Shown here: piece by piece, positions 20,902-39,377 of the stretch | How positions within the stretch are numbered: the first letter of the stretch is position 1 | Layout of the letters: each line of letters opens with the position of its first letter | Assembly (NCBI GenBank): GCA_963809475.1 | Contig: CAWEJS010000001.1 | Location: forward strand, 80,570-144,569 | DNA from: an uncultured Acidobacteriota bacterium | GTDB lineage: Bacteria > Acidobacteriota > Vicinamibacteria > Vicinamibacterales > JAKQTR01 | Direction of reading: 5' to 3' | DNA length: 64,000 nucleotides | Made by a program: the position numbers and the translations under genes | Notes under the pieces: generated by a model | What the model was told of the DNA's origin: nothing | The model's input: only the letters and a program-made list of their open reading frames with translations | Databases searched by the model: none

Positions 20902-22355
20902 ACTGAGCGCGCGTCAAGCGCCTGCTGGACGAGCTCCCACACTCGTGCGACGTGGCGCTGGGTCGTCTGCAGATTGCCGATCGCCACACGGATCGTGAAA
21001 CGCCCGCCGAGCACCGTGTGCGAGATGAAGACCTCGCCCGAGGCGTTCACGCGCCGCATGATGGCGTCGTTCAACTGAGTGAGCTCCGCCTCGGTCCACT
21101 CGCGGCCGCGCGGCTTCGCGCGGAAACAGACGACGCTGAAGGGCGCAGGCGCCAGGCGCTCGAAGTCGGGGTGCGCATCGACCCACGACGCGAACTCCTG
21201 CGCGAGCCTGATGTGATGGCGGAGCCGGTCGCGCACGCCCTCGGCGCCGAAGTAGCGGAGGATCATCCAGAGCTTCAGCGAGCGGAAGCGCCGACCGAGT
21301 TGAACACCCGTATCCATTAGATTGCGGGCGGCGTCCGGCGTCTTCAGGTACTCCGGCACGAGGGAGAACGCCTGGCGGAGGACGTCCATCCGGCGGCAGA
21401 AGAACGCACTGAGATCGAACGGCGTGAAGAGCCACTTGTGGGGGTTCACGACGAGCGAGTCGGCGCGCCCGGCGCCGGCCAGGATGTCCGCGTGCTCGGG
21501 CAGCATCGCCGCGACGCCGGCGTACGCCGAGTCGATGTGCAGCCAGATGCGCTCGGCCTCGCAGGCGTCGGCGATGGCGGCCACGGGATCGACGCTCGTG
21601 GTCGAGGTCGTGCCGACGGTGGCCACGACCGCAACCGGCAGGAAGCCCGCCGCGCGGTCCTCGGCAATCGCAGCCCGCAGCGCGCCGGGCGGCATGCGGA
21701 AGCTGGCGTCGCACGGGATGCGGCGCAGCGCCTCGTGGCCGAAACCCGCAAGGATCACGCCCTTGTCGATGGAGGAGTGCGCCTGGTCCGAGCAGTAGAC
21801 GCGCAGGCGCGGCACGTCCGCGCGGCCAGCCAGGCCGAGCCGGCGCACATCCGGCACGGCGGCCTCGCGCGCCGCGGCGAGCGCGTGCAGGCTCGACATC
21901 GACGCAGTGTCGTAGATGACGCCCTCGAAGGAGTCCGGCAACCCGATCAGGCGCCGCAGCCAGCCCATCGCGACAGCTTCGAGTTCCGTGGCCGACGGCG
22001 ACGTGCGCCAGAGCATCGCCTGCTGGTTGAGCGCCGACGCGATGAAGTCGGCGAGCACGCCCGGAGCGCTGGCCGTCGTGGCGAAGTAGGCCATGAAGCC
22101 CGGGTGGTTCCAGTGGGTCATCCCCGGCATGAGGATGCGATCGAAGTCGGCCATGATCGCGTCGAAGGCCTCGGGCGATTCCGGGGCCTCGGCCGGCAAT
22201 GCGTTCCTGATGTCGCCTGGAGCGACCTGCGCGAGAACCGGGAGCCGCTCGGGATACTCCATGAAGCGCGCGATCCACTCGACCATCGCGTGGCCGTGCC
22301 CGCGAAACTCGTCTGCCGGCATGTCCCCGAGCAGCCGGCCGGAGTCGGGAACCAC
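20898..22355 (-). CDS. ddc: PLP-dependent aromatic-L-amino-acid decarboxylase (group II)
   Basis: RBS GGGAGG before GTG; THWNHPGFMAYF, SPSATELE, SDQAHSS, HIDSAYAG, NPHKWL, LGRRFRSLKLW. Confidence 0.92.
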   Translation of the reverse strand: MVPDSGRLLGDMPADEFRGHGHAMVEWIARFMEYPERLPVLAQVAPGDIRNALPAEAPESPEAFDAIMADFDRILMPGMTHWNHPGFMAYFATTASAPGVLADFIASALNQQAMLWRTSPSATELEAVAMGWLRRLIGLPDSFEGVIYDTASMSSLHALAAAREAAVPDVRRLGLAGRADVPRLRVYCSDQAHSSIDKGVILAGFGHEALRRIPCDASFRMPPGALRAAIAEDRAAGFLPVAVVATVGTTSTTSVDPVAAIADACEAERIWLHIDSAYAGVAAMLPEHADILAGAGRADSLVVNPHKWLFTPFDLSAFFCRRMDVLRQAFSLVPEYLKTPDAARNLMDTGVQLGRRFRSLKLWMILRYFGAEGVRDRLRHHIRLAQEFASWVDAHPDFERLAPAPFSVVCFRAKPRGREWTEAELTQLNDAIMRRVNASGEVFISHTVLGGRFTIRVAIGNLQTTQRHVARVWELVQQALDARSV

Positions 22356-22373
22356 AATTGACCTCCCTGAAGA

Positions 22374-22455
22374 TGGGGTCAGACTCGACCGAGCGCACTT
22401 GGGGTCAGACTCGACCGGTTCCCGACACAGACCGGTCGAGTCTGACCCCAAGTGC
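22374..22455. repeat. REP-like element: two direct copies of TGGGGTCAGACTCGACCG plus a perfect 25-bp inverted repeat
   Basis: GCACTTGGGGTCAGACTCGACCGGT (22395-22419) pairs with 22431-22455; extra direct copy at 22374-22391; related TGGGGTCAGACTC at about 12171. Confidence 0.85.
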
Positions 22456-22466
22456 CGGACGAGCCC

Positions 22467-23549
22467 CTATCTTTCGATCGTCACCGTCACCGCCTGCCGC
22501 AGCCGGACCGTGACCGCGGTCCCCGACGCGAGGACGGCGGGGTTCCGACCGCCGGCCATCGTGGCAGCCGTGCCGCCCGCGGCGCCAATCGCGCCGCCGA
22601 TGGCCGCGCCCTTGCCGCCGCCCACGATCGCGCCGATGATGGCGCCGCCTGCGGCCGCGCCGCCCATCTTGGCCGCCGCTTCCTTGCCCGGTGACTTGCC
22701 CTCGCGAGAGACCGCGTCGGTGCTGATCGAGAGCCTGGTGCCGTCGGCCAGCACGAGCGTGTGGAACCGGACGCCAATCTTCGCGGTGGTCTTCATCTTG
22801 CCGCCGCGCTCGACGGCAATGACCGACCCGATCACCCGCGTGCCCGCCGGGATGGCCACGTCGTTCCCGACGCGGACGTCACGGGCGACGCGCGCTTCGA
22901 CGGGATCCTCTACCCTCGCCACCTCACTCGACACAGACGACTCGACCTTGAGCCCGAGCACGGAGTCGGCCGTGACGACCAGTTCCTCGAAGGTCTTCGG
23001 CGGCGGCACGGGTTCCGGCGGGGTTGCCGGCTCGGTCACAGGCGCCTCTGGAACGGCAGGCGGGAGAGGCAGTGCCGCGGCACTCGGGTTCACCGAGACC
23101 GGTGCCGCTGCCGTCGCCGCACCGGCGACGCCCGCCGCGGCCGTTGGCGCCGTCTTCGGTCGGACGGGCTTCTTGACAACCGCCTTTGCCGGCGCGGCGG
23201 CCGCGACCGGCGCAGGCGTCTCAGCCGTCGCCGCCTGAGCGACTGGTGCCGGCTCCACCACGGGTTGAGCCGCGGGCTCCGTCGGCTGGGCCGCCGCGGG
23301 ATCGGCCGCCGGGATCGTTGCAGCCTCGATCGGCGCCGTGTGCTCCGCTGCCGCCGCGGGCGCGGCCGCAGACTCGACGGCTGCCGGCGTCTGCGCGGCC
23401 TGCGCCGTCTCCGCCGTTACCGCCGCTCCCGCAGGCGCGGCCGTCGCCGCCGCGGGCGCCGGCTTCGGCCGCAGCACCATGTAGGCGCCGAACCCGGCCG
23501 CCGCCACGACCAGCAGGATCGCCACGCCAAGCGCCACGAGCTTCTTCAT
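22467..23549 (-). CDS. Membrane-anchored Ala/Pro-rich protein with TrbI/VirB10-like beta domain and glycine zipper
   Basis: N-terminal TM MKKLVALGVAILLVV; IPAGTRVIGSV; GGAAAGGAIIGAIVGGGKGAAIGG. Confidence 0.75.
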   Translation of the reverse strand: MKKLVALGVAILLVVAAAGFGAYMVLRPKPAPAAATAAPAGAAVTAETAQAAQTPAAVESAAAPAAAAEHTAPIEAATIPAADPAAAQPTEPAAQPVVEPAPVAQAATAETPAPVAAAAPAKAVVKKPVRPKTAPTAAAGVAGAATAAAPVSVNPSAAALPLPPAVPEAPVTEPATPPEPVPPPKTFEELVVTADSVLGLKVESSVSSEVARVEDPVEARVARDVRVGNDVAIPAGTRVIGSVIAVERGGKMKTTAKIGVRFHTLVLADGTRLSISTDAVSREGKSPGKEAAAKMGGAAAGGAIIGAIVGGGKGAAIGGAIGAAGGTAATMAGGRNPAVLASGTAVTVRLRQAVTVTIER

Positions 23550-23582
23550 GATTGTCTCCCCCCGCACGTGCTCTGAATCCAC

Positions 23583-23598
23583 AGCAAGGGCCGTGCCG
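23583..23598 (-). promoter_or_regulatory. Sigma54 (-24/-12) promoter
   Basis: Minus strand CGGCACGGCCCTTGCT, GG-N10-GC, about 35 nt upstream of ATG 23549. Confidence 0.65.
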
Positions 23599-23761
23599 GG
23601 ACCATCGATCGGCCGCTTCCCGGCAATCGCTGGTTGACGTGCAGTTTACCAGAACGGCCCCCGGAGGGCGCCGCGTGCCGCTGACCCCTTTCTTACACGC
23701 CCGGGCGCCCCGCGCCGTCCTCATTTGCAAACGGCCCGTTCGCACGGCAGAATGGCTCGCG

Positions 23762-24493
23762 ATGAAACTCCTCGACCAGTTCGAACGGGACGGCGACCGC
23801 CTGTTCCGCTGGCGCAGCTACCTTCCGCTCGTGCTGGTCCCTGTCGTCATCGCCGGTGTGATCACGACCGCCCCACCGTTCTCGACGCGCCAGGCCGAGC
23901 GGCTCTGGGAACTCGCCAGCGTCTGCCTCGCCCTCACCGGCCTCGCCCTGCGCGTGTGGGCCGTAGGATCGGCGCCGCAGGGCACGTCCGAGCGCAGCAC
24001 CGTCAACCCGCGCGCCTCGCAGCTTCGCACCTCCGGCCCCTACTCCCTCGTGCGCCACCCGCTCTACGTTGCGAACGGCCTGATGGCGCTCGGGCTGTCC
24101 CTGTTCCCCGGCGTCTGGTACCTGCCCGTCATCCTCGTTGCCACGTTCCTCCTCTACTACGAGCGGATCGCCGTGCGCGAGGAGGCGTTCCTCCTGGAGC
24201 GGTTCGGCGCCGAGTTCGAATCCTGGGCGGCGCGCGTGCCCGCGTGCGTGCCGCGCTTCGCGAACTACACCCGCTCGACCACGCCGTACTCCTGGAAAAA
24301 GGTCCTGCGCCACGAGTTCCACGGCCTGCTCGTCATCGCGGCAAGCGCCTTCCTCTTCGACGCGCTGCAGGAATCCTGGCGCGCGCGCGCCTGGCAGGCC
24401 GATGCGATCTGGCTCTGGTTCGCCGCCGCGAGCGCCGTGCTCTTCGCCGTCTTCACCGTGCTGAAGAAGGGCACGGGTCTTTTCAAGAGCTGA
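23762..24493 (+). CDS. Isoprenylcysteine carboxylmethyltransferase-family membrane methyltransferase (LmtA-like)
   Basis: LFRWRSYLP, GTSERS, TSGPYSLVRHPLYVAN, YYERI..EE.FL. Confidence 0.8.
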   Translation: MKLLDQFERDGDRLFRWRSYLPLVLVPVVIAGVITTAPPFSTRQAERLWELASVCLALTGLALRVWAVGSAPQGTSERSTVNPRASQLRTSGPYSLVRHPLYVANGLMALGLSLFPGVWYLPVILVATFLLYYERIAVREEAFLLERFGAEFESWAARVPACVPRFANYTRSTTPYSWKKVLRHEFHGLLVIAASAFLFDALQESWRARAWQADAIWLWFAAASAVLFAVFTVLKKGTGLFKS

Positions 24494-27143: not shown

Positions 27144-30116
27144 ATGAACGCTGGATTCGCCCGCCGGGTTTGCGCCCGGACGCCCATCGTCGCCTGCCTG
27201 GTGGTGTGCGCCGCCCTGGCCTCTCCACTTCACGCCCAGAAGCCCGCGGCCGCGCAGAAGCTGGATGCAGCCTACACGAAGCTGATCAAGGACTACACGC
27301 AGGACGCGCGCATCAGCACGGAGCTCGTCGATCACATGCCGGCGAGCGACAAAGTGCCGTCGCCGCTCACGTTCTTCGGGCGCATCCCGGGAACGCCCGG
27401 CGAGTTGACGTACGCGAAGGACATCCAGCGCTACTACGAGGCCCTCGCGAAGTCGTCCCCACGCTTCAAGTACTGGACGATTGGCAAGTCGGAGGAGGGC
27501 CGCGACATGATCCTCCTGGCCGTCGCAGACGAGGCCACCATCAAGACGCTCGACAAGTACAAGGCCGATCTCAGCGCGCTGACCGACCCGCGCACGACGA
27601 CTGAAGCGCAGGCGCGGCAGATCATCAAGACGGCGAAGCCCATTTACTGGGTGACCGCCGGCATGCACTCGGGCGAGACGGGCGGGCCCGAGATGCTGAT
27701 CGAGCTGCCGTACCGCCTCGCGGTCGAGGAGACGCCCTTCATCCAGAACATCCGCAAGAACGTCATCGTCTTCATCACGCCGGTGCTCGAGGTGGACGGC
27801 CGGGAGAAGCACGTCGACACCTACTACTACGGGAAGAAGACCGGAAAGCAGCGGCCGCCGCTCGTCTACTGGGGCAAGTACGTCGCTCACGACAACAACC
27901 GCGACGCCATGGGGCAGATGCTCAAGCTGACGCAGCACGTCAACAAGACGTTCCTCGAGTGGAAGCCGACGATCCTCCACGACCTGCACGAGGCGTCGAA
28001 CTACCTTTACGCCTCCACCGGCACCGGCCCTTACACCGAGGCGCTCGACGCCATCACCATCGACGAATGGTGGGCTTTGGCGAACACCGAGGTCATGGAG
28101 ATGGCCAAGCGGAACGTGCCGGGCGTCTGGACCTACGGTTTCTACGACGGCTGGACCCCGAACTACATGTTCTACATCGCCCACACGAAGAACGCCGTCG
28201 GGCGGTTCTACGAAGTCCAGAGCTACGGCCCGGACATCGTCGAGAACCTGCGCATGGGCACGAACGCGACCAGCCGCGAGTGGTTCCGCCCGAACCCGCC
28301 GTTGCCGTCGATCAAGTGGGGCCCGCGCAACAACACGAACATCCAGGAGTCGGCGCTGCTCCTCGCCCTCAACTACGTGGCGAAGAACCGCGAGACGTTC
28401 CTCGAGAACTACTGGCTCAAGAACCAGCGCGCGGTGAACAAGGGCAGGACGGAGGCGCCGTTTGCCTGGGTGATCCCGGCCGCACAGCGGCGCAAGGCCG
28501 AGGCCGCGGATCTCGTGAACGCGTTGCGCCGCCAGGGCCTCGAGATCTCCCGGGCGGACGCGCCGTTCAAGGCGGGCGCCGCCGACGTCGCCGCCGGCGA
28601 CTACGTCATCCGCGCCGACCAGCCCTACCGGACGATGGCCGAGATGTACTTCGGGTTGCAGAACTACGCGCCGGCAAACCCGAGGCCGTACGACGACACC
28701 GGCTGGACCATGCAGCTGATGAGGAACGTCAAGCTGGTGCCCGTGGCGGACAAGGGCGTGCTCGCCCAGCCGATGACGTTCGTCGCGGCCGACGTGAGGG
28801 CGCCTGGAGGCATCGAGGGCACGGGCCCGGTGCTCGTCGTCGAACACACGAGCGACAGCAACGTGGTGACGTTCCGCTTCACGCATGCCGGAGTCAAGAT
28901 GCTGGCGGCGGAAGAAGACTTCATGCTGGCCGGACACCAGTTCCGCGCCGGGGCGTTCATCATCCCCAATGCCGATCGCGCGGCGCTCGAGCCGACGTTG
29001 AAGAACCTGGGCCTGTCGGCGTGGGCGGTGAGCACTGCGCCCACGGTCAAGACGCACGACCTCGACGTGCCGCGCATCGGCTACGTGCACTCGTGGTCGC
29101 GCACGCAGGACGAGGGTTGGGTCCGCGCGGCCTTCGACGTCTACGGCGTGCCCTACACCTACTTCGGCGACATCAAGCTGCGCGAGGGCAACCTGCGGGC
29201 GAAGTACGACGTGATCGTGTTCCCGCACGTCGGCGGCACCGCGCAGTCCATGGTGAACGGCATCGCCAGGACCGGCGCCGACCCGGTGCCATACAAGAAG
29301 TCCGAGTTGACGCCCAACCTCGGCGTCCAGGACCAGGCCGATGACATTCGCGGCGGGATGGGCCTCGAAGGCCTGATGAACCTCTACCAGTTCGTCAAGG
29401 ACGGCGGCCTGCTCATCGTCGAAGGCGCGACGTCCACCATCTTCCCCGAGTACAAGCTCGTGAATGGCGTGACGGTGGAGAACCCCGAGGGGCTGTTCGT
29501 GCGCGGGTCCATCATGCGCGGCGTGGTGGCCGACGCGAGGAGCCCGATCGTCTACGGGTGGGACGGCGCGCAGTTGCCCGTGTACTTCAGCCAGGATCCC
29601 GTGCTGGCCGTCGGCGGCTTTGGCGGTGGAGGCGGCCGCGGCGGGTTCGGCGGCGGCGCGCAGATTCCCGGCGTCGGCATGACTGTCGCGCCCAACGCGA
29701 GCGCGACGCAGAAGCTGTCGCCGTGGGAGGCGGGGAGTGCACCGGTGGTTGCAGGCACGGTTGGCAGCGGCCCGGTGACAGGCGTGGCCGCCGGCGGTCC
29801 GAGCGGCGGACGTGCCGGGGGGCCCGGCGGTGGCCCTTCGGCAGGCTCAGGGCAGGCAGGGTTCGCCGGGTTCGGCGCCGATGCGCCGCGGGTCATCCTG
29901 CGCTTCCCGACCAACCCTGACGAGATGCTTCTGTCAGGAGTGCTCGTCGGCGGCCAGGCGCTCTCAGGGCGCGCCCAAGTCGTGGACGCGCCCATCGGCA
30001 CGGGCCACGTCGTGATGTTCGCCATCCGGCCCTACTGGCGCTGGCAGACCCAGGGCACCTACTTCCTGGGTTTCAATGCGATCATGAACTGGAACGACCT
30101 CGGCGCCGGGAAGTGA
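27144..30116 (+). CDS. M14 family zinc carboxypeptidase
   Basis: Signal peptide; GKSEEGR, MHSGE, HDNNRD, HDLHE, PYDDTGWT. Confidence 0.9.
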   Translation: MNAGFARRVCARTPIVACLVVCAALASPLHAQKPAAAQKLDAAYTKLIKDYTQDARISTELVDHMPASDKVPSPLTFFGRIPGTPGELTYAKDIQRYYEALAKSSPRFKYWTIGKSEEGRDMILLAVADEATIKTLDKYKADLSALTDPRTTTEAQARQIIKTAKPIYWVTAGMHSGETGGPEMLIELPYRLAVEETPFIQNIRKNVIVFITPVLEVDGREKHVDTYYYGKKTGKQRPPLVYWGKYVAHDNNRDAMGQMLKLTQHVNKTFLEWKPTILHDLHEASNYLYASTGTGPYTEALDAITIDEWWALANTEVMEMAKRNVPGVWTYGFYDGWTPNYMFYIAHTKNAVGRFYEVQSYGPDIVENLRMGTNATSREWFRPNPPLPSIKWGPRNNTNIQESALLLALNYVAKNRETFLENYWLKNQRAVNKGRTEAPFAWVIPAAQRRKAEAADLVNALRRQGLEISRADAPFKAGAADVAAGDYVIRADQPYRTMAEMYFGLQNYAPANPRPYDDTGWTMQLMRNVKLVPVADKGVLAQPMTFVAADVRAPGGIEGTGPVLVVEHTSDSNVVTFRFTHAGVKMLAAEEDFMLAGHQFRAGAFIIPNADRAALEPTLKNLGLSAWAVSTAPTVKTHDLDVPRIGYVHSWSRTQDEGWVRAAFDVYGVPYTYFGDIKLREGNLRAKYDVIVFPHVGGTAQSMVNGIARTGADPVPYKKSELTPNLGVQDQADDIRGGMGLEGLMNLYQFVKDGGLLIVEGATSTIFPEYKLVNGVTVENPEGLFVRGSIMRGVVADARSPIVYGWDGAQLPVYFSQDPVLAVGGFGGGGGRGGFGGGAQIPGVGMTVAPNASATQKLSPWEAGSAPVVAGTVGSGPVTGVAAGGPSGGRAGGPGGGPSAGSGQAGFAGFGADAPRVILRFPTNPDEMLLSGVLVGGQALSGRAQVVDAPIGTGHVVMFAIRPYWRWQTQGTYFLGFNAIMNWNDLGAGK

Positions 30117-30123
30117 AGGAGGG

Positions 30124-32853
30124 TCAGCGGAGCAGGGCGGCCTCGGGCGGCACGAGACTGATGCGCCGCACGCGGGGGAGCGCGCCGCCCTTGATGCGCA
30201 TCGTTACGCGATTGAGCCCGTCGATCCAGGCGGCGGCAGGTGTCGCCCAGTCCAGCGTGTTCCAGGCTGTCGCGTACGGGCGGGTGCCGAGGCTCTGCCC
30301 GTTCACGAGCAGTTCGGCCGTGCCGCCGTCGGCGGCTCCGCCAAGGCGGATGCTGACAGCGACCGGCGAGGGCTTTCCAAGCGGCAGCACGAGCTCGGCT
30401 TCCGGATCCGAGAGTTCACGCTCGAATCCGAATGCGGTTGGCCAGACGCGGCCCCAGCCGCCTCCAAAGTACTTGTCGCCGCCTGGTCCCAGATACACCG
30501 CGGTGGTTGGCAGACTGGCCGAGAGACTGAGGGGCTCGGCCGGCGGCGCACACACGATCGCATGGGGAGCCTCCGGAACGTCCACACGGCCGCGTGCGAT
30601 GACCCAACTCGGAACGCCTCCGAGCAGCAGGTCGAACACGCTGAATTGGCCTTTGTCGTTGACAGTGACAGCGACGCGCGCGACGGCCCGCGCCAACAAC
30701 AGTGCCTCCACAGGCGGCACGTGGTCCTGGAGAAGACGTGCGGCGAGCCCGTTCCCGCCGTCGGATTCCCGCCTGAATTGCTCCGTGAGTATCCCCGGTG
30801 TGCCGGTCCCGGAGTACTCGCCCAGCCTGATCCGCAGCGGGGCTGTCGAGGCGACGTACAGATCCAACCCGGCCAGCGCCGGTCTGCGGTTGTCGAGATA
30901 GCCGGACAAGACAGTGCCCTTGACCTGCTTCAAAGACACCCAGTTCCCGCGCCCGACCTCGGCGCACGACTCCGGTCGGATCGCCTCGCCGACCTCGAAC
31001 AGCGGGCGCCTGCCCATTTGCATCGGTACGCGCATCCCTTGTTCTGGCAGTGCCGCGTACGCGCTATGGACGTGGCTCCCCATCTCGACGATGACGAGGC
31101 CGCGACGGGACTCGACAACCGATTCACCGCCGATCCGTATCTCGGCCCGGCCGCCGGTTACGGTGGCCATGATGTCGGCCGGGGCTGCCACGCCCGTGTC
31201 ACCCAGCATCTGACCGGCCGGTATGGTGACCTGCCCGTCGAAGCCATCAGGCGTTCTCGCGACGATGCCGGCATTCTTCACGGCGATGACGACGGCCCGA
31301 CCATGAGGAGTCCCGCCGGCGACGAGGCCTAGCGAAGGAACCGCCGGCCACGGGTCCGCCGTGCCGGAGAGGACGACGACCCACCCCGGGTCGAGCGTCC
31401 TGAGCCTCTCGTCCAGCGTAAGCCCGAATAACTCGACGGGCTTCATGACATGACCGCGCGCGAGGAGATCCCGCCCTCCTCCGAAAGCGAAAACGGAGAT
31501 GCCTTCCTCGAGCAGCGGCTCCACACGATCAGGTGTCGGGGGGACGCTCGTGATGACCCACTTCTGGCCAGTCACCACCTTCTGGTACTCGATCATGTGA
31601 TCCAGCGTGTAGTGCTCGGCGACGAACGCCGCCTTGGGCGGCAGACTGCCGAACAGCACTCGCATGTAGTCCATGTCATATACGTCATTGCGGTGGTTGT
31701 TCACCGTGTAGTTGCCGACCGCGAGGACGGCCGCGATCGACACGGCGACACCTGCAGCCGCGGCTGAGGCAAGCCGGGCAGGCGCGCGCGACCGAAGTGC
31801 CACGCGGAGGCCGTCGATCCCGCAACCCACCAGCATCCAGAGGAGCGCAACAGCAGGCAAGGCGATTGGGCCGATCGCGACGTCTCCAAGCAAGGCGAGC
31901 AGCAGGAGCTGTCCCGCGCTGGCTCCGACGAGCAAGGCGCCAAGGCACCGCTCCCGCCTGAACAGCCACACCGCGCCGGCCGCGGCAAACATGGCAGCGG
32001 CCCAGCCCGTCTCGGAGCGGACCGCCCTCAGGACCGCAGGTATCCGCCGCTCGGCCACCACCGTGGGCGGATCTTTGAAAGCCAGCGACTCGAACTGCTT
32101 GGCTCTCATGACGTCCACCAGTTCGCGCAGGTTCCCCGCCCGGGATTCGAGGTACGTCGAATGCTGGATCGTGCGAACCCACACGTAGCCGTACTGCGCG
32201 AGCCCGGCTGCGACGATCAGAGCTGAGACGACGGCGACACGCCATGGCGGGCGCCACCTGAACCTCGCCAGCACGAAGAGCACAAATGCGGGCAGGGAGC
32301 CCACGAAGATCAGGTGTGCGCCGAACGCGAGACTGGCCAGAGCGACCGCGGCGTAGAGCCATTGCAGGCGTTGCGACCGGACCCAGTACAGCAGCAGGAG
32401 CATCGCCGCCGCCGTCAGTGCCGCCGCCAGCGTGTAGACCTCGGCGAACACCGAGTGCTGCCAGAACGTGCGCCCCAGCCCCATCGCGCACGCGACGCCC
32501 AGCGCAACCCATCGGTAGACCCGAAGCCTCCTCATGGCGAGGAACACGAACGCGCAGGCGGAGGCCCCGCAGAGGGCCGAGAACACATTGATGCGGTAGG
32601 CCAGTGTCCCGAATGGCAGGCGGGACCAGGCGTGGGTGAGAGTCGTGTAGAGCGGGTATCCGGGATCGTGGGGCGTGCCCAGCACCGCGCCGATGTACTG
32701 GAACTTGGCGGTATCCTCGGTACCGCCGAGGCCGGGCAGCAACGTGAGGAGATACAGGAGGAACAGCGAAACGAAGACGGCAGCGGCGGCAGCCCAATCA
32801 ACCCAGTCCCGATCCTGCGCGGCCTGACGCGTGGTCGTTATCGTGGCAGCCAT
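30124..32853 (-). CDS. DUF2723 / TMEM260-like polytopic glycosyltransferase with a long C-terminal extracytoplasmic extension
   Basis: LYLLTLLPG..GTED..FQ, HDPGYPLY, AYRINVFSA, AEVYTL; start placed at ATG 32853. Confidence 0.8.
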   Translation of the reverse strand: MAATITTTRQAAQDRDWVDWAAAAAVFVSLFLLYLLTLLPGLGGTEDTAKFQYIGAVLGTPHDPGYPLYTTLTHAWSRLPFGTLAYRINVFSALCGASACAFVFLAMRRLRVYRWVALGVACAMGLGRTFWQHSVFAEVYTLAAALTAAAMLLLLYWVRSQRLQWLYAAVALASLAFGAHLIFVGSLPAFVLFVLARFRWRPPWRVAVVSALIVAAGLAQYGYVWVRTIQHSTYLESRAGNLRELVDVMRAKQFESLAFKDPPTVVAERRIPAVLRAVRSETGWAAAMFAAAGAVWLFRRERCLGALLVGASAGQLLLLALLGDVAIGPIALPAVALLWMLVGCGIDGLRVALRSRAPARLASAAAAGVAVSIAAVLAVGNYTVNNHRNDVYDMDYMRVLFGSLPPKAAFVAEHYTLDHMIEYQKVVTGQKWVITSVPPTPDRVEPLLEEGISVFAFGGGRDLLARGHVMKPVELFGLTLDERLRTLDPGWVVVLSGTADPWPAVPSLGLVAGGTPHGRAVVIAVKNAGIVARTPDGFDGQVTIPAGQMLGDTGVAAPADIMATVTGGRAEIRIGGESVVESRRGLVIVEMGSHVHSAYAALPEQGMRVPMQMGRRPLFEVGEAIRPESCAEVGRGNWVSLKQVKGTVLSGYLDNRRPALAGLDLYVASTAPLRIRLGEYSGTGTPGILTEQFRRESDGGNGLAARLLQDHVPPVEALLLARAVARVAVTVNDKGQFSVFDLLLGGVPSWVIARGRVDVPEAPHAIVCAPPAEPLSLSASLPTTAVYLGPGGDKYFGGGWGRVWPTAFGFERELSDPEAELVLPLGKPSPVAVSIRLGGAADGGTAELLVNGQSLGTRPYATAWNTLDWATPAAAWIDGLNRVTMRIKGGALPRVRRISLVPPEAALLR

Positions 32854-32903
32854 TATGCCACGGCGGGCCGCGGTCTCCCGGGCTCCCTGGGCGGCCCGCC
32901 TCG

Positions 32904-33454
32904 CAGGGGCCGCCAGTTGGCGTGCCCGATCTGCAGGAACACACAGTTCTACACGCGCGCGTACCTGCTGAACACACGCATCGCGGGCTTCTTCAACTTC
33001 GACTGGGCCAACAAGGCCGCCCTCACGTTCGTCTGCGAACAGTGCGGCCACATCCTGTGGTTTCGGCCGCATCCGCCTGGCGGGCAACACCGGCGTGGGC
33101 CTGCTGATGGTGGACCAGGAACTCGCGAGCGGCAACATTCCTGGCGCCCCGGCGGAACCGCCGGCGGCGGGCGGCGCCCAGGCGTAGCGGCGGGGCTCAG
33201 TACCCCTTTGCCGCGCCGACGCGCCGCGGGTGATCCTGCGCTTCCCGGCGAATCCGGACGAGATGCTCCTTTCGGGCGTGCTCGTCGGCGGGCAGGCGCT
33301 CTCGGGCCGTGCCCAAGTCGTGGACGCGCCCGTCGGCACGGGCCACGTTGTGATGTTCGCCATCCGGCCGTATTGGCGCTGGCAGACCCAGGACACCTAC
33401 TTCCTGGGGTCCAATGCGATCATGAATTGGAACGATCTGAACGCGGGGAAGTAG
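32904..33454. pseudogene. Mosaic relic of four neighbouring genes (zinc-ribbon, ferritin 3' end, GGT 3' end, M14 3' end)
   Basis: 32904-33063 matches 36237-36396; 33063-33174 matches 36834-36945; 33197-33218 matches 37655-37676; 33213-33454 matches 29875-30116. Confidence 0.9.
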
Positions 33455-33567
33455 ACAACAATTCGCGTCGCCTTGCGCCATTCCGGGCACCGCTCCCTGC
33501 GGGATGGGCGCGGTCGATTCCTCAGCCCGCCCGCTGCCTGTGCGCCTGTGCGCGCTCCGCATGCCAG

Positions 33568-33583
33568 TGGCGCGTTCCTTGCA
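33568..33583 (+). promoter_or_regulatory. Sigma54 (-24/-12) promoter
   Basis: TGGCGCGTTCCTTGCA, GG-N10-GC, about 90 nt upstream of GTG 33672. Confidence 0.6.
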
Positions 33584-33671
33584 CGGTTCGTCATGTGGAG
33601 AGTTGTGCCATACTGCTCGCGTCCCCTCCAGCAGCCGTGGTTCTCCGCACAGCGTGTGGAAGGAGCACCCA

Positions 33672-36044
33672 GTGACTCGTGGTACTCGAACGCGCGGAGC
33701 CATCCTGGCGGCGGGATGCGCGCTTCTCGCCTTCTCTCTCAGCGCGAATGCCCAGACGGCCGTGCCGTCGTTCGACCCGGGCGCCAACGCCGCCATCTAC
33801 GCGATCGCGGTACAGCCAGACGGGAAGATCCTCGTCGGCGGCTCCTTCACGATGCTGGGCGGCGGCGGCTCGGGCTCGACGCCGCGCAACCACATCGGGC
33901 GGCTCAATGCCGACGGGTCCCTGGACACCGAATTCAACCCCGGCGCCGACAGCTACGTCTACGCGATTGCCGTGCAGCCCGACGGGAAGATTCTCGTCGG
34001 CGGCGACTTCTCGGCACTGGGCGACGGCGGCTCCGGCACCGCTCGGCACCGCATCGGACGGCTCAATGCCGACGGGTCGGTTGACGGGAGCTTCGACCCG
34101 GGCGCCAACAGCGCGGTGTACGCCTTCGCGATTCAGCCGGACGGGAAGATCGTGGCCGTTGGCAGCTTCACGATGCTCGGCGGCGGCGGGGCGGGCACGA
34201 CGGTACGCCACCGGATTGGCCGGCTCGACAGCAACGGCTCCCTCGACGTGGACTTCAATCCCGGCGCGAACGCGGTGATCATCTCCACGTGCCTGCAGAG
34301 GGACGGCAAGATCGTCGTGGCCGGCCTGTTCACGATGCTGGGCGGCGGCGGGACAGGGACCACGGCGCGCAGCCACATCGGGCGGATCGACGGCAGCGGC
34401 TCGCTCGACACGGGCTTCGACCCCGGCGCGAACGGCGACGTCGTCGCGACTGCCTTGCAGCCCGACGGAAAGATCCTCGTCGGCGGGACCTTCTCGATGC
34501 TGGGCGGCGGCGGATCGGGCACGACCGAGCGCTACGCAATCGGGCGGATCAACAGCAACGGTTCGTTGGACCCGGACTTCAATCCCGGCGCGAACAGCAC
34601 CGTGCTCGGCCTCGCCGTGCAGGCGGACGGGAAAATCGTCGCGGGCGGGTACTTCTCCATGCTCGGCGGCGGCGAGCGCTCCTATGTCGGGCGCTTGAAC
34701 GCCAACGGTTCGCTCGACGCCGGGTTCGATCCCGGAGCGGACAATTCCACGCCGGCCGTCGCGGTGCGGGGCGACGGGGGCGTCCTGGTCGGCGGCTCCT
34801 TCTCCGACGTCGGCGGCGCGCCCCGCAGCCGGATCGCGCTCCTGTCGAACCCCGACGCTTCGGTCCAGGATCTCAGCGTCGCGGGCGACGGCACGTCGGT
34901 GACGTGGTTGCGCGGCGGCGGCAGCCCCGAGGTGGCGCGCGCGAGCTTCGAGTTCTCGACCGACGGCCTGACGTACACGCCGCTCGGTGCCGGCTCGTAC
35001 GTTTCAGGCGGCTGGCAGATCACCGGGCTCAGCCTGCCGGTGGAGGGGAACCGCTACGTGCGCGCGCGCGGGTTCTATGCCACGGGCCAGTCGGACGGTT
35101 CGGGGTCGATTGTCGAGTCCGTCTGGCGGTCCGTCGCGGCGACCCGCAGCGACTTCGACGGCGACCTGACGTCGGACGTCATGTGGCGGAACATCGCACA
35201 AGGCGACATCTGGCTGTGGTCGATGGCTGGCGGGGCGAAGGCGTCGGAAGCCTACGTGGGGACGGTGGCGGACCTGAATTGGGAGATTCGCGGGCAGGGC
35301 GACCAGGACGGCGACGGGAAGTCGGACTTCCTCTGGCGGAACAAAGCCACCGGGATGATCTACTACTGGCGGATGGACGGCGGCACGCCGGCAGGAGAGT
35401 CGTACGTGTCGACGGTGGACCTCGCCTACGACATCATCGGCACGGGTGACTTCGACGGGGACGGGAAATCGGACATCCTCTGGCGGAACACGGTGGTCGG
35501 GGACGTGTGGGTCTGGCGGATGGACGGGGCGACGGTGCTGGGCGAGGGTTACGTCGACACCGTGGGCCCGGGCTACGTCGTGAAGGGCATCGGCGACCTG
35601 GACGGGGACACCGCGGAGGACGTGGTGTGGTACGGCGCGGCGGGGGACGTCTGGGCGTGGCTGATGGACGGCACGGCCAAGAAGTCGCAGGCTTACGTCG
35701 GCACGGTGGAAGAACTGGCGTTTCAGATCCAGCAGGTGGCGGACTTCGACGGCGACAGGAAGGCCGACCTCCTGTGGTGGAACAACGTGTCCGGCGAGGT
35801 GTGGATCTGGCAGATGGACGGCACGTCGGTGGCGTCGAAGCACTTCGTCGGGGTCGTCCCGGAGACGAACTACCGCGTCATGGCGGCGGGAGACTACAAC
35901 GGCGACACCAGAGCGGACATCCTGTGGCGCCACGCGACGCGCGGCGACCTGTGGGTGTGGCTGATGAACGGCCCCGTGAAGGAGTCCGAGATCTACCTCG
36001 GCATGGTGCCGGACACGAACTACCAGATCGTCTTGGCGAAGTAG
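33672..36044 (+). CDS. Secreted protein with 7 delta-60 repeats and 6 FG-GAP repeats
   Basis: RBS AGGAG; signal peptide; AVQPDGKILVGG-type repeats x7; DFDGDGKSDILWRN-type repeats x6. Confidence 0.88.
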   Translation: MTRGTRTRGAILAAGCALLAFSLSANAQTAVPSFDPGANAAIYAIAVQPDGKILVGGSFTMLGGGGSGSTPRNHIGRLNADGSLDTEFNPGADSYVYAIAVQPDGKILVGGDFSALGDGGSGTARHRIGRLNADGSVDGSFDPGANSAVYAFAIQPDGKIVAVGSFTMLGGGGAGTTVRHRIGRLDSNGSLDVDFNPGANAVIISTCLQRDGKIVVAGLFTMLGGGGTGTTARSHIGRIDGSGSLDTGFDPGANGDVVATALQPDGKILVGGTFSMLGGGGSGTTERYAIGRINSNGSLDPDFNPGANSTVLGLAVQADGKIVAGGYFSMLGGGERSYVGRLNANGSLDAGFDPGADNSTPAVAVRGDGGVLVGGSFSDVGGAPRSRIALLSNPDASVQDLSVAGDGTSVTWLRGGGSPEVARASFEFSTDGLTYTPLGAGSYVSGGWQITGLSLPVEGNRYVRARGFYATGQSDGSGSIVESVWRSVAATRSDFDGDLTSDVMWRNIAQGDIWLWSMAGGAKASEAYVGTVADLNWEIRGQGDQDGDGKSDFLWRNKATGMIYYWRMDGGTPAGESYVSTVDLAYDIIGTGDFDGDGKSDILWRNTVVGDVWVWRMDGATVLGEGYVDTVGPGYVVKGIGDLDGDTAEDVVWYGAAGDVWAWLMDGTAKKSQAYVGTVEELAFQIQQVADFDGDRKADLLWWNNVSGEVWIWQMDGTSVASKHFVGVVPETNYRVMAAGDYNGDTRADILWRHATRGDLWVWLMNGPVKESEIYLGMVPDTNYQIVLAK

Positions 36045-36201: not shown

Positions 36202-36432
36202 ATGAGCAAGGATACCGAGGCTGCGCCGAGATCGGTCAGGGGCCGCCAGTTGGCGTGCCCGATCTGCAGGAACACGCAGTTCTACACGCGCGCCTACCTG
36301 CTGAACACGCGCGTCGCCAGCTTCTTCAATTTCGACTGGGCGAACAAGGCCGCCCTGACGTTCGTCTGCGAACAGTGCGGCCACATCCTGTGGTTTGCCG
36401 CCGACACCGAACACGAGGACCATCATGAATAA
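36202..36432 (+). CDS. Small zinc-ribbon protein
   Basis: CPIC...CEQCG; the duplicated copy differs mostly at synonymous sites, supporting this frame. Confidence 0.85.
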   Translation: MSKDTEAAPRSVRGRQLACPICRNTQFYTRAYLLNTRVASFFNFDWANKAALTFVCEQCGHILWFAADTEHEDHHE

Positions 36433-36955
36433 GGACCTGCTGAAAGGCCTGAACGAGCACCTGACGCTGGAATTCCGCGCGTCGCACGAATATCTCGCCA
36501 TGTCGACGTGGCTCACCGTCAACGACCTGCCCGGCTTCTCGAAGTGGATGCGCCAGCAGTCCGCCGCCGAGCTCACCCATGCGCAGCGCATCATCGACCA
36601 CATCCTCGAGCGCGACGAGCAGCCGATCCTGCCTGCCATCGCCGCGCCACCGAAGGGATGGAAGTCCGTGGAAGCCCTCTGCGCGCACGTCCTGAAGAAC
36701 GAGCAGGAGGTGACGGCGTCGATCCACGACCTCTACGCCGCCGCCGATCAGGCGAAGGACCGCGCGGCCGCCATCATGCTGCAGTGGTTCGTGACGGAGC
36801 AGGTCGAGGAGGAGGCGCAGGCGCGCGCCGTGCTCGGCCGCATCCGCCTGGCGGGCAACACCGGCGTCGGCTTGCTGATGGTGGACCAGGAACTCGCGAG
36901 CGGCAACATCCCCGGCGCGCCGGCGGAACCGCCGACGGCGGGCGGAGCGGCATAA
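36425..36955 (+). CDS. ftnA: Non-haem ferritin
   Basis: LNEH...EF.AS..YLAMS.W, E..HA, EQEVT, LQWFVTEQVEEE. Confidence 0.9.
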   Translation: MNKDLLKGLNEHLTLEFRASHEYLAMSTWLTVNDLPGFSKWMRQQSAAELTHAQRIIDHILERDEQPILPAIAAPPKGWKSVEALCAHVLKNEQEVTASIHDLYAAADQAKDRAAAIMLQWFVTEQVEEEAQARAVLGRIRLAGNTGVGLLMVDQELASGNIPGAPAEPPTAGGAA

Positions 36956-37654: not shown

Positions 37655-39331
37655 TCAGTATCCCTTCGCCGCCCCGGCGCCGCGGGGATCGGCGCCGCCG
37701 CGGTAGGTCATCGGGTTGCCGTCCGAGTCGTATGCGATCGTCAGTCCGTGTGCGTTGCCGAGCGCGCGGACCACGCGGACGTTGTGACCCATGGCCGCCA
37801 GGGCCGCGCGCACGTCCGCGGGGATCCCTTCCTCAACGGCGAGCACGTCCGGTTCGACGAAGCTGACGCGCGGCGCCGCGATCGCCTCGTCTATCGGCAT
37901 CCCGAAGTCAATGAGGTTCATCACGATCTGCGGCACAGTCTGGCCGATGGTGTGCCCGCCAGGGGTGCCCACGGCGGCCCACAGCCGGTTGTTGCGCAGG
38001 ATGATCGTGGGGCAGTCGCCGGACAGCTTCCGGCGCCCCGGGAACGCGTCCATCGGGTTGCCCTTCGGCTCGAACGTGCTGTACGCGAGCGAGTCGTTCA
38101 GCCAGATGCCGGTGCCCTCGGGCATGACGCGGCTGCCGAACGCGTTGCCGAGCGTCTGTGTGGCCGACACCACGTTGCCCCACTTGTCGGCCACGACGAA
38201 GTGGGTGGTGTGGCTGTCCTTCCCGCCGGACCATTCCGGCGGCTCGAATGGCTTCGCGCGCTTCGGGTCGATGCGCTCGATCTCCTTGTGCCAGTACGGT
38301 TCGGAGAGCAGTTCGCCGAGCGGCGGCCGGGCCACGTCGGGATCGCCGGCATAGCGGAGGCGCAGCCAGTAACCGTGCTTCGTGACCTCGGCGAACCGGT
38401 GCAGGTACGCCACGGTGTTGTGGCCGAGCACCCGGGAGTTGCTGCGGCTCATCATGCCGAGGCGGACGAGCGAATCGAACGCGTTCGCCGGCGGCGCCGC
38501 CGTGAAGACTGCGTAGCCGCGGTACTCGATGGAGATCGGGTCAATCCACTCGGCGCGGTCCTTCTTCAGATCTGCCAGGGACAGGAACCCGCCGGCCTGG
38601 CGCATGGCGCGGTCCACCGCCGCGCCGATCTCCCCCTCGTAGAACGCCGCCGGTCCGCGCTGCACCACGGTGCGGAACGACCGCGCGAGATCCTGCTGCA
38701 CGAGCCGTTCGCCTGTCGTGAGCGGCTTGCCGCCCCTTCCGTAGATGCGCCTGGCGTGGTCGGGAAAGGCGCCGTAGGCCGACGTGATGACGCCGGCGCC
38801 CGCCGCGTCCAGGACGAACCCCTCTTCCGCCAGCTTGATGGCCGGCTCGAACACCCGCGACCATGTCAGTCGGCCGTACTTCTTCCCCAGCGCCTCCCAG
38901 GCGTGCAGGTTGCCGGGCGTCGACACCGCCTTGGCGCCGGAGCGGTTCTGCAGGTAGTCCGGCGTGGGCGGGCGGAAGACGTCCGCGTCGACCAGGGTGG
39001 GGATGCGCCCGGCAGCGTTGAGGTAGCGCACCTGCTCCTGCTTCGCGTCCCAGATGAGGATCGTGCCGTAGCCGCCCATCCCGGACATGGCCGGCTCCAC
39101 CACATTCAGGGCCGCGGCGATGGCGACGGCGGCATCGAAGGCGTTTCCGCCGTTCTTGAGGATCTCGAGGCCCGCGTCGGTGGCAAGGGGATGGGCCGTG
39201 CTGACCATGCCGGACATGCGGCCGCCCTGGCGCGCGGGCGACGCCCCGAGCGGTGGGAGCTGCACCTGCGACGACAAGATCACCGGCAGGGCGATGGCGG
39301 CGGCGAGAACGGGAATAAGTAACGGGCGCAC
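37655..39331 (-). CDS. ggt: Gamma-glutamyltransferase
   Basis: GGNAFDAAVA, EPAMSGMGG, HTTHFVVAD (nucleophile Thr), GTPGG, GGADPR; GTG start after GGAG. Confidence 0.93.
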   Translation of the reverse strand: MRPLLIPVLAAAIALPVILSSQVQLPPLGASPARQGGRMSGMVSTAHPLATDAGLEILKNGGNAFDAAVAIAAALNVVEPAMSGMGGYGTILIWDAKQEQVRYLNAAGRIPTLVDADVFRPPTPDYLQNRSGAKAVSTPGNLHAWEALGKKYGRLTWSRVFEPAIKLAEEGFVLDAAGAGVITSAYGAFPDHARRIYGRGGKPLTTGERLVQQDLARSFRTVVQRGPAAFYEGEIGAAVDRAMRQAGGFLSLADLKKDRAEWIDPISIEYRGYAVFTAAPPANAFDSLVRLGMMSRSNSRVLGHNTVAYLHRFAEVTKHGYWLRLRYAGDPDVARPPLGELLSEPYWHKEIERIDPKRAKPFEPPEWSGGKDSHTTHFVVADKWGNVVSATQTLGNAFGSRVMPEGTGIWLNDSLAYSTFEPKGNPMDAFPGRRKLSGDCPTIILRNNRLWAAVGTPGGHTIGQTVPQIVMNLIDFGMPIDEAIAAPRVSFVEPDVLAVEEGIPADVRAALAAMGHNVRVVRALGNAHGLTIAYDSDGNPMTYRGGADPRGAGAAKGY

Positions 39332-39377
39332 GAGGATCTCCATTGCCGGCGTGAATTGCTCTTCAGGCGCGTCCACA

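What the first reader, a model, noticed from the sequence alone, without database searches (positions are those of the whole stretch)
29875..33454. 550-bp mosaic of four neighbouring genes records capture of an alternative allele of the same locus
Seen: 32904-33454 strings together indel-free but diverged copies of the zinc-ribbon gene (160 bp; 7 synonymous and 2 nonsynonymous differences by my count), the ferritin 3' end with its own TAG, the GGT 3' end (GAAKGY-stop, synonymous changes only) and the last 242 bp of the M14 peptidase (about 20 synonymous codon changes, 5 amino-acid changes). The GGT/M14 junction shares GCGCCG. Inference: synonymous-biased divergence means the copies evolved as functional orthologues in another strain. 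A roughly 3.3-kb donor piece (M14 end - DUF2723 - Zn ribbon - ferritin - GGT end) appears to have recombined into M14 and rejoined by microhomology, displacing the resident M14 end. Two alternative cargos of one variable slot (DUF2723 and delta-60/FG-GAP) now sit in tandem with no integrase or IS, as expected for homology-facilitated illegitimate recombination.
Basis: partly seen in the sequence, partly recalled or inferred. Interest (0 to 1): 0.7.

Follow-up and report, generated by a model that had tools for sequence, protein, structure and literature searches.

The report
Two alleles joined by recombination scar
In a soil acidobacterium, two versions of the same variable gene slot sit side by side, and the 550-base mosaic between them is the broken leftover of four duplicated flanking genes, most likely a scar of integrase-free recombination with a related strain, a known process rather than a new system.

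Summary
Window 32904-33454 holds four gap-free, diverged pieces of neighbouring genes: zinc-ribbon, ferritin end, GGT end and M14 end. The differences are mostly synonymous (37 synonymous, 9 non-synonymous). The parent arrangements exist intact elsewhere: DUF2723 directly beside a whole zinc-ribbon gene (runs X1 and X2, contig L110), and ferritin tail-to-tail with GGT (X2, X3). There are three breaks, not two, with shared stretches of 11-15, 1 and 6 bp. The stranded M14 end has lost two residues that are invariant in 16 of 16 relatives. None of 8 same-genus genomes repeats the mosaic, and no integrase is near. Best reading: a related strain's allele was added by one homologous crossover plus a microhomology join (HFIR-like), and the redundant genes then decayed. 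Which allele came in is not settled (about 2:1 for DUF2723). No contig bridges the joins by 31 bases or more, and the source reads were not available. The same anatomy recurs at other loci of this Vicinamibacterales genome (clearest at sodA) and in relatives. This scan has noted such displaced gene ends in many other genomes. It is a clear new case of a known process.

The parts
27144..30116 (+). M14 zinc carboxypeptidase, intact; upstream core gene of the slot
   Evidence: PF00246; upstream of the slot in 10 relative genomes
29875..30116 (+). M14 3' end, copy A (functional end; DUF2723-linked type)
   Evidence: X1 contig 29955-30702 has 10 differences in 748 bp
30124..32853 (-). Cargo 1: DUF2723/TMEM260-like membrane glycosyltransferase, intact, single copy in the genome
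   Evidence: (PF11028); same slot in G001, L103, L110
32904..32918 (+). Break 1: about 127 bp, including the zinc-ribbon start, lost between two 11-15 bp direct repeats
   Evidence: alignment with L110; size; X1 and X2 joints
32904..33063 (+). Remnant of zinc-ribbon gene: no start, no end; 7 synonymous and 2 non-synonymous differences
33063..33187 (+). Ferritin 3' end remnant ending in QA-stop, as in relatives. Break 2 at 33063 shares 1 bp, about 437 bp is lost, and the remnant is out of frame with the Zn piece
   Evidence: frame
33197..33218 (-). GGT 3' end remnant (22 bp, GAAKGY-stop), tail-to-tail with the ferritin end across a 9-bp spacer
   Evidence: the same adjacency in X2 and X3 and in L096, L098, L101, L102
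33213..33218 (+). Break 3: GGT/M14 join with 6-bp microhomology GCGCCG; likely the illegitimate junction
33213..33454 (+). Stranded M14 3' end, copy B; G>D and F>S at residues invariant in 16 of 16 relatives
33504..36044 (+). Cargo 2: delta-60 (DUF5122) / FG-GAP repeat secreted protein; start codon uncertain
36202..36432 (+). Intact zinc-ribbon gene (name from its CxxC motifs; no Pfam hit)
36425..36955 (+). Intact ferritin gene
   Evidence: PF00210
36989..37645 (+). Hexapeptide (serine-acetyltransferase-like, SAT) gene; absent from the mosaic's ferritin-GGT allele
37655..39343 (-). Intact gamma-glutamyltranspeptidase (GGT)
   Evidence: PF01019

Best explanation
The 550-bp mosaic is a non-functional remnant between two tandem alleles of one variable slot, most likely made when DNA from a related strain (M14 end, DUF2723, zinc ribbon, ferritin, GGT end) entered by one homologous crossover near the M14 3' end and was rejoined at a 6-bp microhomology, pushing the resident M14 end and its delta-60 cargo downstream. 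Shown: the four pieces, their synonymous bias, the intact parent adjacencies in other strains, the shared bases at the three breaks, and decay of M14 copy B. Inferred: which allele came in; that break 3 is the primary join; that breaks 1 and 2 are deletions of redundant genes, during or after entry; and that the DNA came by natural transformation. A fragment that circularised at the same 6 bp and entered by a single crossover in the last 242 bp of M14 would give the same map and is counted here. The broader claim, two diverged alleles joined without an integrase, I put at about 0.9.
For: Synonymous bias in all four pieces. 38 of 43 mosaic letters at differing sites are seen in intact relatives. 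DUF2723 joins a whole Zn gene in X1 and X2 (two studies) and in L110. Ferritin joins the GGT end without SAT in X2 and X3. Identity step: the listed contig pieces of X1, X2 and X3 are 98.2, 98.2 and 98.3% to the M14-end/DUF2723 block but 95.6, 95.0 and 94.3% to the flanks (from 8 listed pieces per run). In X1 the step falls between a 96.1% piece ending at 29679 and a 98.7% piece starting at 29955. X5 has pieces about 99% to the M14 body and 98.4% to the 36-kb Zn, at similar depth, but 8 differences in 160 bp to the mosaic Zn. The 6-bp microhomology fits the 3-10 bp given for HFIR (PMC3240628, Introduction). No integrase is nearby. ComEC, DprA and HHH_3 proteins are present. The same anatomy occurs at sodA.
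Against: No contig bridges any break by 31 bases or more, and the junction pattern had 0 hits in JGI metagenomes. Metagenome pieces need not come from one strain, and X2 and X3 share a study. The mosaic's Zn piece is not closer to the DUF2723-linked Zn of L110 (87%, against 90% for the 36-kb Zn and ferritin start). X2's ferritin is not closer to the mosaic either (93.7% versus 94.7%). X5 shows no identity step (95.5 versus 96.4%, P=0.21). The M14-B to delta-60 link was not seen in any other strain (no cover at 33464-33539 in 4 of 4 runs). HFIR usually deletes about as much as it inserts (PMC3240628), but here little resident DNA seems lost.
Confidence: 0.5

Rival explanations
1. Mirror direction, same mechanism. 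The resident was M14-DUF2723-Zn-ferritin-GGT. The incoming piece (M14 end B, delta-60, Zn, ferritin, SAT, GGT end) crossed over inside GGT and joined at GCGCCG on its left, and the resident Zn and ferritin then decayed.
For: The topology is identical. DUF2723-Zn and ferritin-GGT are the adjacencies seen in other strains and species. Delta-60 was in this slot in 0 of 10 relative genomes and 0 of 27 metagenome contigs.
Against: It needs a background whose DUF2723 and Zn were already foreign to its M14 body. X5 pieces match the M14 body and the 36-kb Zn at about 99% but not the mosaic Zn, and X1-X3 show the identity step around DUF2723.
Confidence: 0.22
2. A longer partial diploid formed first (unequal crossing-over with donor DNA, a merodiploid). 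All three breaks, including GGT/M14, are later microhomology deletions that trimmed the redundant copy.
For: Breaks 1 and 2 are deletions within one allele, so break 3 could be a third. At sodA and at C2:21613 the copies have 100-200 bp identical blocks beside the join. Transformation is reported to make merodiploids in S. pneumoniae (PMC3784515, abstract).
Against: There is no identical block at this join: the first difference lies 7 bp from it and differences run through all 242 bp. No IS-like repeat borders the region. It needs one more multi-kb deletion.
Confidence: 0.17
3. Assembly chimera of two co-occurring strains.
For: The genome is a 2-contig assembly whose reads I could not lay: the best run held 0.23 of the words, and no contig bridges the joins. 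Long pairs of this kind were not found in 1.2 Mb sampled from two relatives.
Against: There are three nested breaks with 1-15 bp overlaps, too short for assembler overlaps (inference). Two substitutions hit invariant residues. The same cargo-plus-diverged-end anatomy occurs in small JGI contigs L099 and L102 and in G009. One 151-base X7 contig crosses break 3 with 18 bases on the GGT side (below the 31-base rule, so a weak hint). Contamination is 1.14%.
Confidence: 0.06
4. Local duplication inside this lineage, followed by neutral drift of the spare copy.
For: The copies lie within 3-4 kb of their genes, and 5 of 43 variants are private to the mosaic.
Against: Differences are synonymous-biased (P from 1e-8 to 3e-3). 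The ferritin end and the ferritin-GGT adjacency match other strains, not the local copy.
Confidence: 0.03
5. The mosaic is a conserved functional element (recombination template, attachment site, small RNA or small protein).
For: A 74-codon frame survives at 33230-33454.
Against: 0 of 8 same-genus genomes have second copies (only 3 of the 8 pass 90% completeness and 5% contamination). The Zn start is deleted, the Zn/ferritin fusion is out of frame, invariant M14 residues are lost, and the changes are not adenine-specific (8 of 43 sites have A in the gene copy).
Confidence: 0.02

Closest known systems
Homology-facilitated illegitimate recombination (HFIR) in S. pneumoniae, A. baylyi and P. stutzeri (PMC3240628: Introduction and passages read; the primary papers are cited through its reference list and were not read)
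   Same: One homologous end plus one join with a 3-10 bp microhomology (6 bp here), and no integrase.
   Different: Here the incoming DNA is an allele of the same locus. Little resident DNA seems lost, so both alleles are kept in tandem and flanking genes are duplicated and then decay. It is seen as a scar in an uncultured soil lineage, not shown by experiment.
C-terminal displacement at Vibrio T6SS effector-immunity arrays and rhs loci (PMC5361080: passages read)
   Same: An incoming module takes over a gene's 3' end and shifts the old end and its downstream gene back; HFIR is proposed there too.
   Different: The genes here are ordinary enzymes with no toxin-immunity logic, and the remnant strings together four genes from both sides of the slot.
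Transformation-induced merodiploids in S. pneumoniae (PMC3784515: abstract and outline read)
   Same: Partial diploidy after DNA uptake, with spare gene copies free to decay.
   Different: Those duplications are 100-900 kb and bordered by IS861 repeats. Here the span is a few kb, there is no IS, and the copies differ by 6-11%.
Circularise-and-integrate by single crossover (PMC3240628: abstract and Introduction read)
   Same: It gives an insert flanked by two copies of the homologous stretch.
   Different: It cannot be told apart from HFIR here without locating the crossover relative to 29875.

Membership tests
HFIR product | Homology with the recipient at one end of the incoming DNA | tested here: met
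   The M14 end is present in both alleles at 89%, and the identity step lies near the M14 3' end in X1. The crossover is placed only coarsely.
HFIR product | 3-10 bp microhomology at the illegitimate join | tested here: met
   GCGCCG at 33213-33218; about 9 bp at the sodA locus
HFIR product | Deletion of resident DNA of about the size of the insert (usual, not obligatory) | tested here: inconclusive
   The insert is over 3.3 kb and resident loss looks to be a few hundred bp at most, if the X1 step marks the crossover. No parent strain is in hand.
HFIR product | The join is primary, made at integration | tested here: inconclusive
   No identical block at the join, but two other breaks in the same 550 bp are deletions
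HFIR product | RecA-dependent event on linear DNA taken up by transformation | not testable with these tools
   ComEC, DprA and HHH_3 families are present, but ComEC and DprA also ring in 10-11 of 14 control genomes, so they do not show competence
Integrase-driven island (attL/attR in a gene 3' end) | Integrase on or beside the element | tested here: not met
   No integrase or transposase hit among the predicted window proteins; PF00589 hits lie over 2 Mb away on C1 or on C2
Integrase-driven island (attL/attR in a gene 3' end) | Short identical core repeat at both ends | tested here: not met
   The flanking repeat is 242 bp with 27 differences spread along it
Transformation-induced merodiploid (Johnston type) | Duplication bordered by pre-existing repeats such as IS copies | tested here: not met
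   No such repeats in the window self-comparison or the Pfam scan
Diversity-generating retroelement template/variable repeat | Adenine-specific differences and a nearby reverse transcriptase (features recalled, not from a call) | tested here: not met
   A in the gene copy at 8 of 43 sites and in the mosaic at 6 of 43; no RT hit in the window scan

The most novel reading that the evidence does not exclude
In Vicinamibacterales, additive capture of alternative alleles at ordinary core-gene boundaries, with no integrase, is a routine route of gene gain. It leaves several datable scars per genome (about 9 candidate loci with pairs of 100 bp or more in this 4.75-Mb genome), so HFIR, rare in the laboratory, would be a measurable force in an abundant soil lineage.
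Probability: 0.5. Interest if true: 0.5.

Novelty: new member of a known kind. Interest (0 to 1): 0.3.

Why it matters
HFIR is described as orders of magnitude rarer than homologous recombination in the laboratory, and its natural footprints are best known from toxin loci. This locus is an unusually complete natural case at ordinary enzyme genes: parent adjacencies can be found in other strains, and the microhomologies and later decay can be read. Counting such scars across genomes would test how much integrase-free recombination adds to gene gain in soil bacteria. It is not a new molecular system and the mosaic itself appears to have no function.

Tried and rejected
Read support. The run search found no run with half of the words (best 0.23) and no RNA holder listed. 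All laid runs were contigs of other strains. The degenerate GGT/M14 junction pattern had 0 hits in JGI metagenomes. Lack of cover at 33464-33539 is not evidence of absence.

Rate in relatives. With one automatic filter, G000 gave 20 loci in 4.75 Mb, G002 3 in 0.8 Mb and G009 0 in 0.4 Mb. The only G002 pair of 100 bp or more is a multi-copy repeat that looks non-coding. About 2 long loci were expected and 0-1 seen, so the sample is too small to say whether G000 is typical. Several G000 hits are intragenic repeats or possible IS remnants and were not all classified.

At other G000 loci the synonymous bias is not always significant: sodA 2/5, CBM9 6/12, C2:1524582 0/6. It is significant at recD2 (9/1) and the 3-keto-disaccharide hydrolase (6/3).

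Rejected: DGR, integrase island, functional fusion protein, local neutral duplication. PMC122324 (de Vries and Wackernagel) was not held. Paper searches for Vicinamibacterales with recombination and HGT (3 papers, none on this by title or abstract start) and for natural-population scars (1 unrelated paper) found no description. The library lacks most subscription journals, so this is not proof of absence from print.
Full report
Observation. A self-comparison of the window gives three strong local pairs in this region: 33213-33452 with 29875-30114 (88.75%), 32904-33070 with 36237-36401 (93.4%) and 33063-33177 with 36834-36948 (93.9%). Ungapped diagonals fix the ends at 32904-33063, 33063-33177 and 33213-33454. 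The GGT piece is only 22 bp (33197-33218), but the GGT 3' end is the single other place in the genome within three mismatches. Pfam names the parents as M14 peptidase, ferritin and gamma-glutamyltranspeptidase (GGT), and the cargos as TMEM260-like (DUF2723) and DUF5122/FG-GAP. The zinc-ribbon gene has no Pfam hit. Differences are synonymous-biased in every piece: 7/2, 6/1, 3/0 and 21/6. The closest zinc-ribbon relatives in GTDB are titled Vicinamibacterales or Acidobacteriota.

The slot is variable. In 10 relative genomes with M14 and the zinc-ribbon gene on one contig, 9 have an S46 peptidase between them and 1 has nothing. G001 also has DUF2723 there; none has delta-60. Of 27 close metagenome contigs, 23 show S46 upstream of Zn (L103 with DUF2723 as well), L110 has DUF2723 alone, L097 has M14 directly, and 2 give no upstream sequence. 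None has delta-60. This genome has no S46 orthologue at the locus. None of 8 same-genus genomes carries second copies of the pieces.

The parent allele exists. Contigs from runs X1 and X2 (two studies) run from DUF2723 straight into an intact zinc-ribbon start, and X2 and X3 join the ferritin end to the GGT end with 28 and 17 letters between and no SAT gene. L110 shows the same DUF2723-Zn-ferritin order at 95% in DUF2723. Aligning L110 shows that its intergenic DNA holds a near copy of the 15 bases at Zn codons 12-17 (14 of 15 alike, 11 in a row). The mosaic is the 127-bp deletion between these two copies. The mosaic's ferritin ends QA-stop, as in L096, L099, L100, L101 and L102, unlike the local gene. 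At the 43 sites where mosaic and gene differ, the mosaic letter occurs in at least one intact relative at 38; 5 are private to the mosaic and 3 to the genes. Two of the private changes, G>D and F>S in the stranded M14 end, hit residues invariant in 16 of 16 relatives. The copies were therefore working orthologues for most of their divergence and have since begun to decay.

Mechanism. The map is M14 (end A), DUF2723, Zn remnant, ferritin end, GGT end, join, M14 end B, delta-60, Zn, ferritin, SAT, GGT. One homologous crossover plus one join at the 6-bp GCGCCG gives this map. PMC3240628 (Introduction read) defines HFIR that way, with 3-10 bp of microhomology. PMC5361080 (passages read) uses it to explain displaced 3' ends at Vibrio T6SS loci. 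No integrase or transposase family was hit by the predicted window proteins, and the three PF00589 genes are far away. ComEC, DprA and HHH_3 proteins are present, but such genes are common in the control genomes and do not prove competence.

Direction. For DUF2723 as the incoming allele: listed pieces of X1, X2 and X3 are about 98.2% to the M14-end/DUF2723 block and 94-96% to the flanks (8 listed pieces of 101-161 laid per run). X5 has about 99% pieces in the M14 body and a Zn close to the 36-kb copy, not the mosaic. Against: X5 shows no step overall, the DUF2723-linked Zn of L110 is not closer to the mosaic Zn (87% versus 90%), the contigs may come from several strains, and delta-60 has not been seen in this slot elsewhere. 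The mirror history, anchored in GGT, stays open at about 1:2. So does a longer partial diploid trimmed by three deletions (compare PMC3784515, abstract read), although no identical block lies at this join.

Artefact. The source reads were not available. In four runs laid on 32780-33900 no contig bridges a break by 31 bases. One 151-base X7 contig covers 33195-33326 with 6 other letters, crossing break 3 with 18 bases on the GGT side, which is a weak hint only. The junction pattern was not found in JGI metagenomes. A chimera is still unlikely, because the three breaks have biological-looking microhomologies and the remnant carries damaging substitutions.

Recurrence. A genome-wide scan gave 130 local repeat pairs, and a stricter filter gave 20 loci. 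By my reading about 9 of these have pairs of 100 bp or more outside intragenic repeats. The clearest parallel is C2:1462091-1470749: sodA, a PIN gene, the start of a Vps10-domain gene fused at about 9 shared bases to a second sodA end, a second cargo, then the intact Vps10 gene. G003 has sodA, PIN and Vps10 alone, and G008 has the second cargo in the same slot. C2:824789-832848 (CBM9 / 3-keto-disaccharide hydrolase, adjacent in G007), C2:21613-23923 and the recD2 ends at C2:1632526-1642608 look similar. In relatives, L099 and L102 carry a 0.7-kb insert followed by a diverged second Zn end (47-48 bp, 89-94%), and G009 (L038) has a fused two-gene remnant. A 1.2-Mb sample of two relatives was too small to give a rate. 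The scan's own index lists 62 earlier findings with these words in other genomes (AI notes, not checked here).

Verdict. It works like HFIR with 3'-end displacement and meets the sequence-level marks I could test; RecA dependence, the uptake route and the direction are not shown. It is a well-documented new case of a known process. Interest 0.3.

Noticed in passing
G000:C2:1462091-1470749 (L174): The same two-alleles-in-tandem anatomy at sodA / Vps10-domain gene. The remnant forms an open 183-codon fusion (Vps10 start plus SOD C-terminus) with a 54-bp internal deletion between about 10-bp repeats.
   Followed up: partly
G000:C2:824789-832848, 21613-23923, 1632526-1642608, 871014-874459, 1524582-1531354: Further diverged copies of gene ends flanking cargo (CBM9 / 3-keto-disaccharide hydrolase, hydrolase/esterase, recD2 with two extra ends, FG-GAP tail, beta-lactamase-fold protein).
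   Followed up: partly
L099:262-1059 and L102:864-1666: A 0.7-kb insert between the zinc-ribbon gene and ferritin, followed by a diverged 47-48 bp copy of the Zn 3' end; L101 looks like a deleted form.
   Followed up: partly
L219 (G002:C5:1087183-1098004): Four diverged copies (87-93%) of a repeat of about 100 bp that looks non-coding, spaced 1.6-7 kb apart; it could be a cassette-array boundary.
   Followed up: no
window 33504-36044: The FG-GAP tail of the delta-60 gene has at least 6 paralogues at 74-77% elsewhere in the genome, which suggests a family with a shared tail and swapped N-termini.
   Followed up: no
window 39378-63485: A lower-GC polysaccharide and envelope island (glycosyltransferases, Wzy, flippase, acyl carrier plus seryl-tRNA-synthetase-like gene, Ig/InlB-repeat protein) begins right after GGT.
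   Followed up: no
window 29600-29875: Break 3 maps to the edge between M14's variable glycine-rich linker and its conserved last 80 residues; several relatives' alignments also break in this linker.
   Followed up: no
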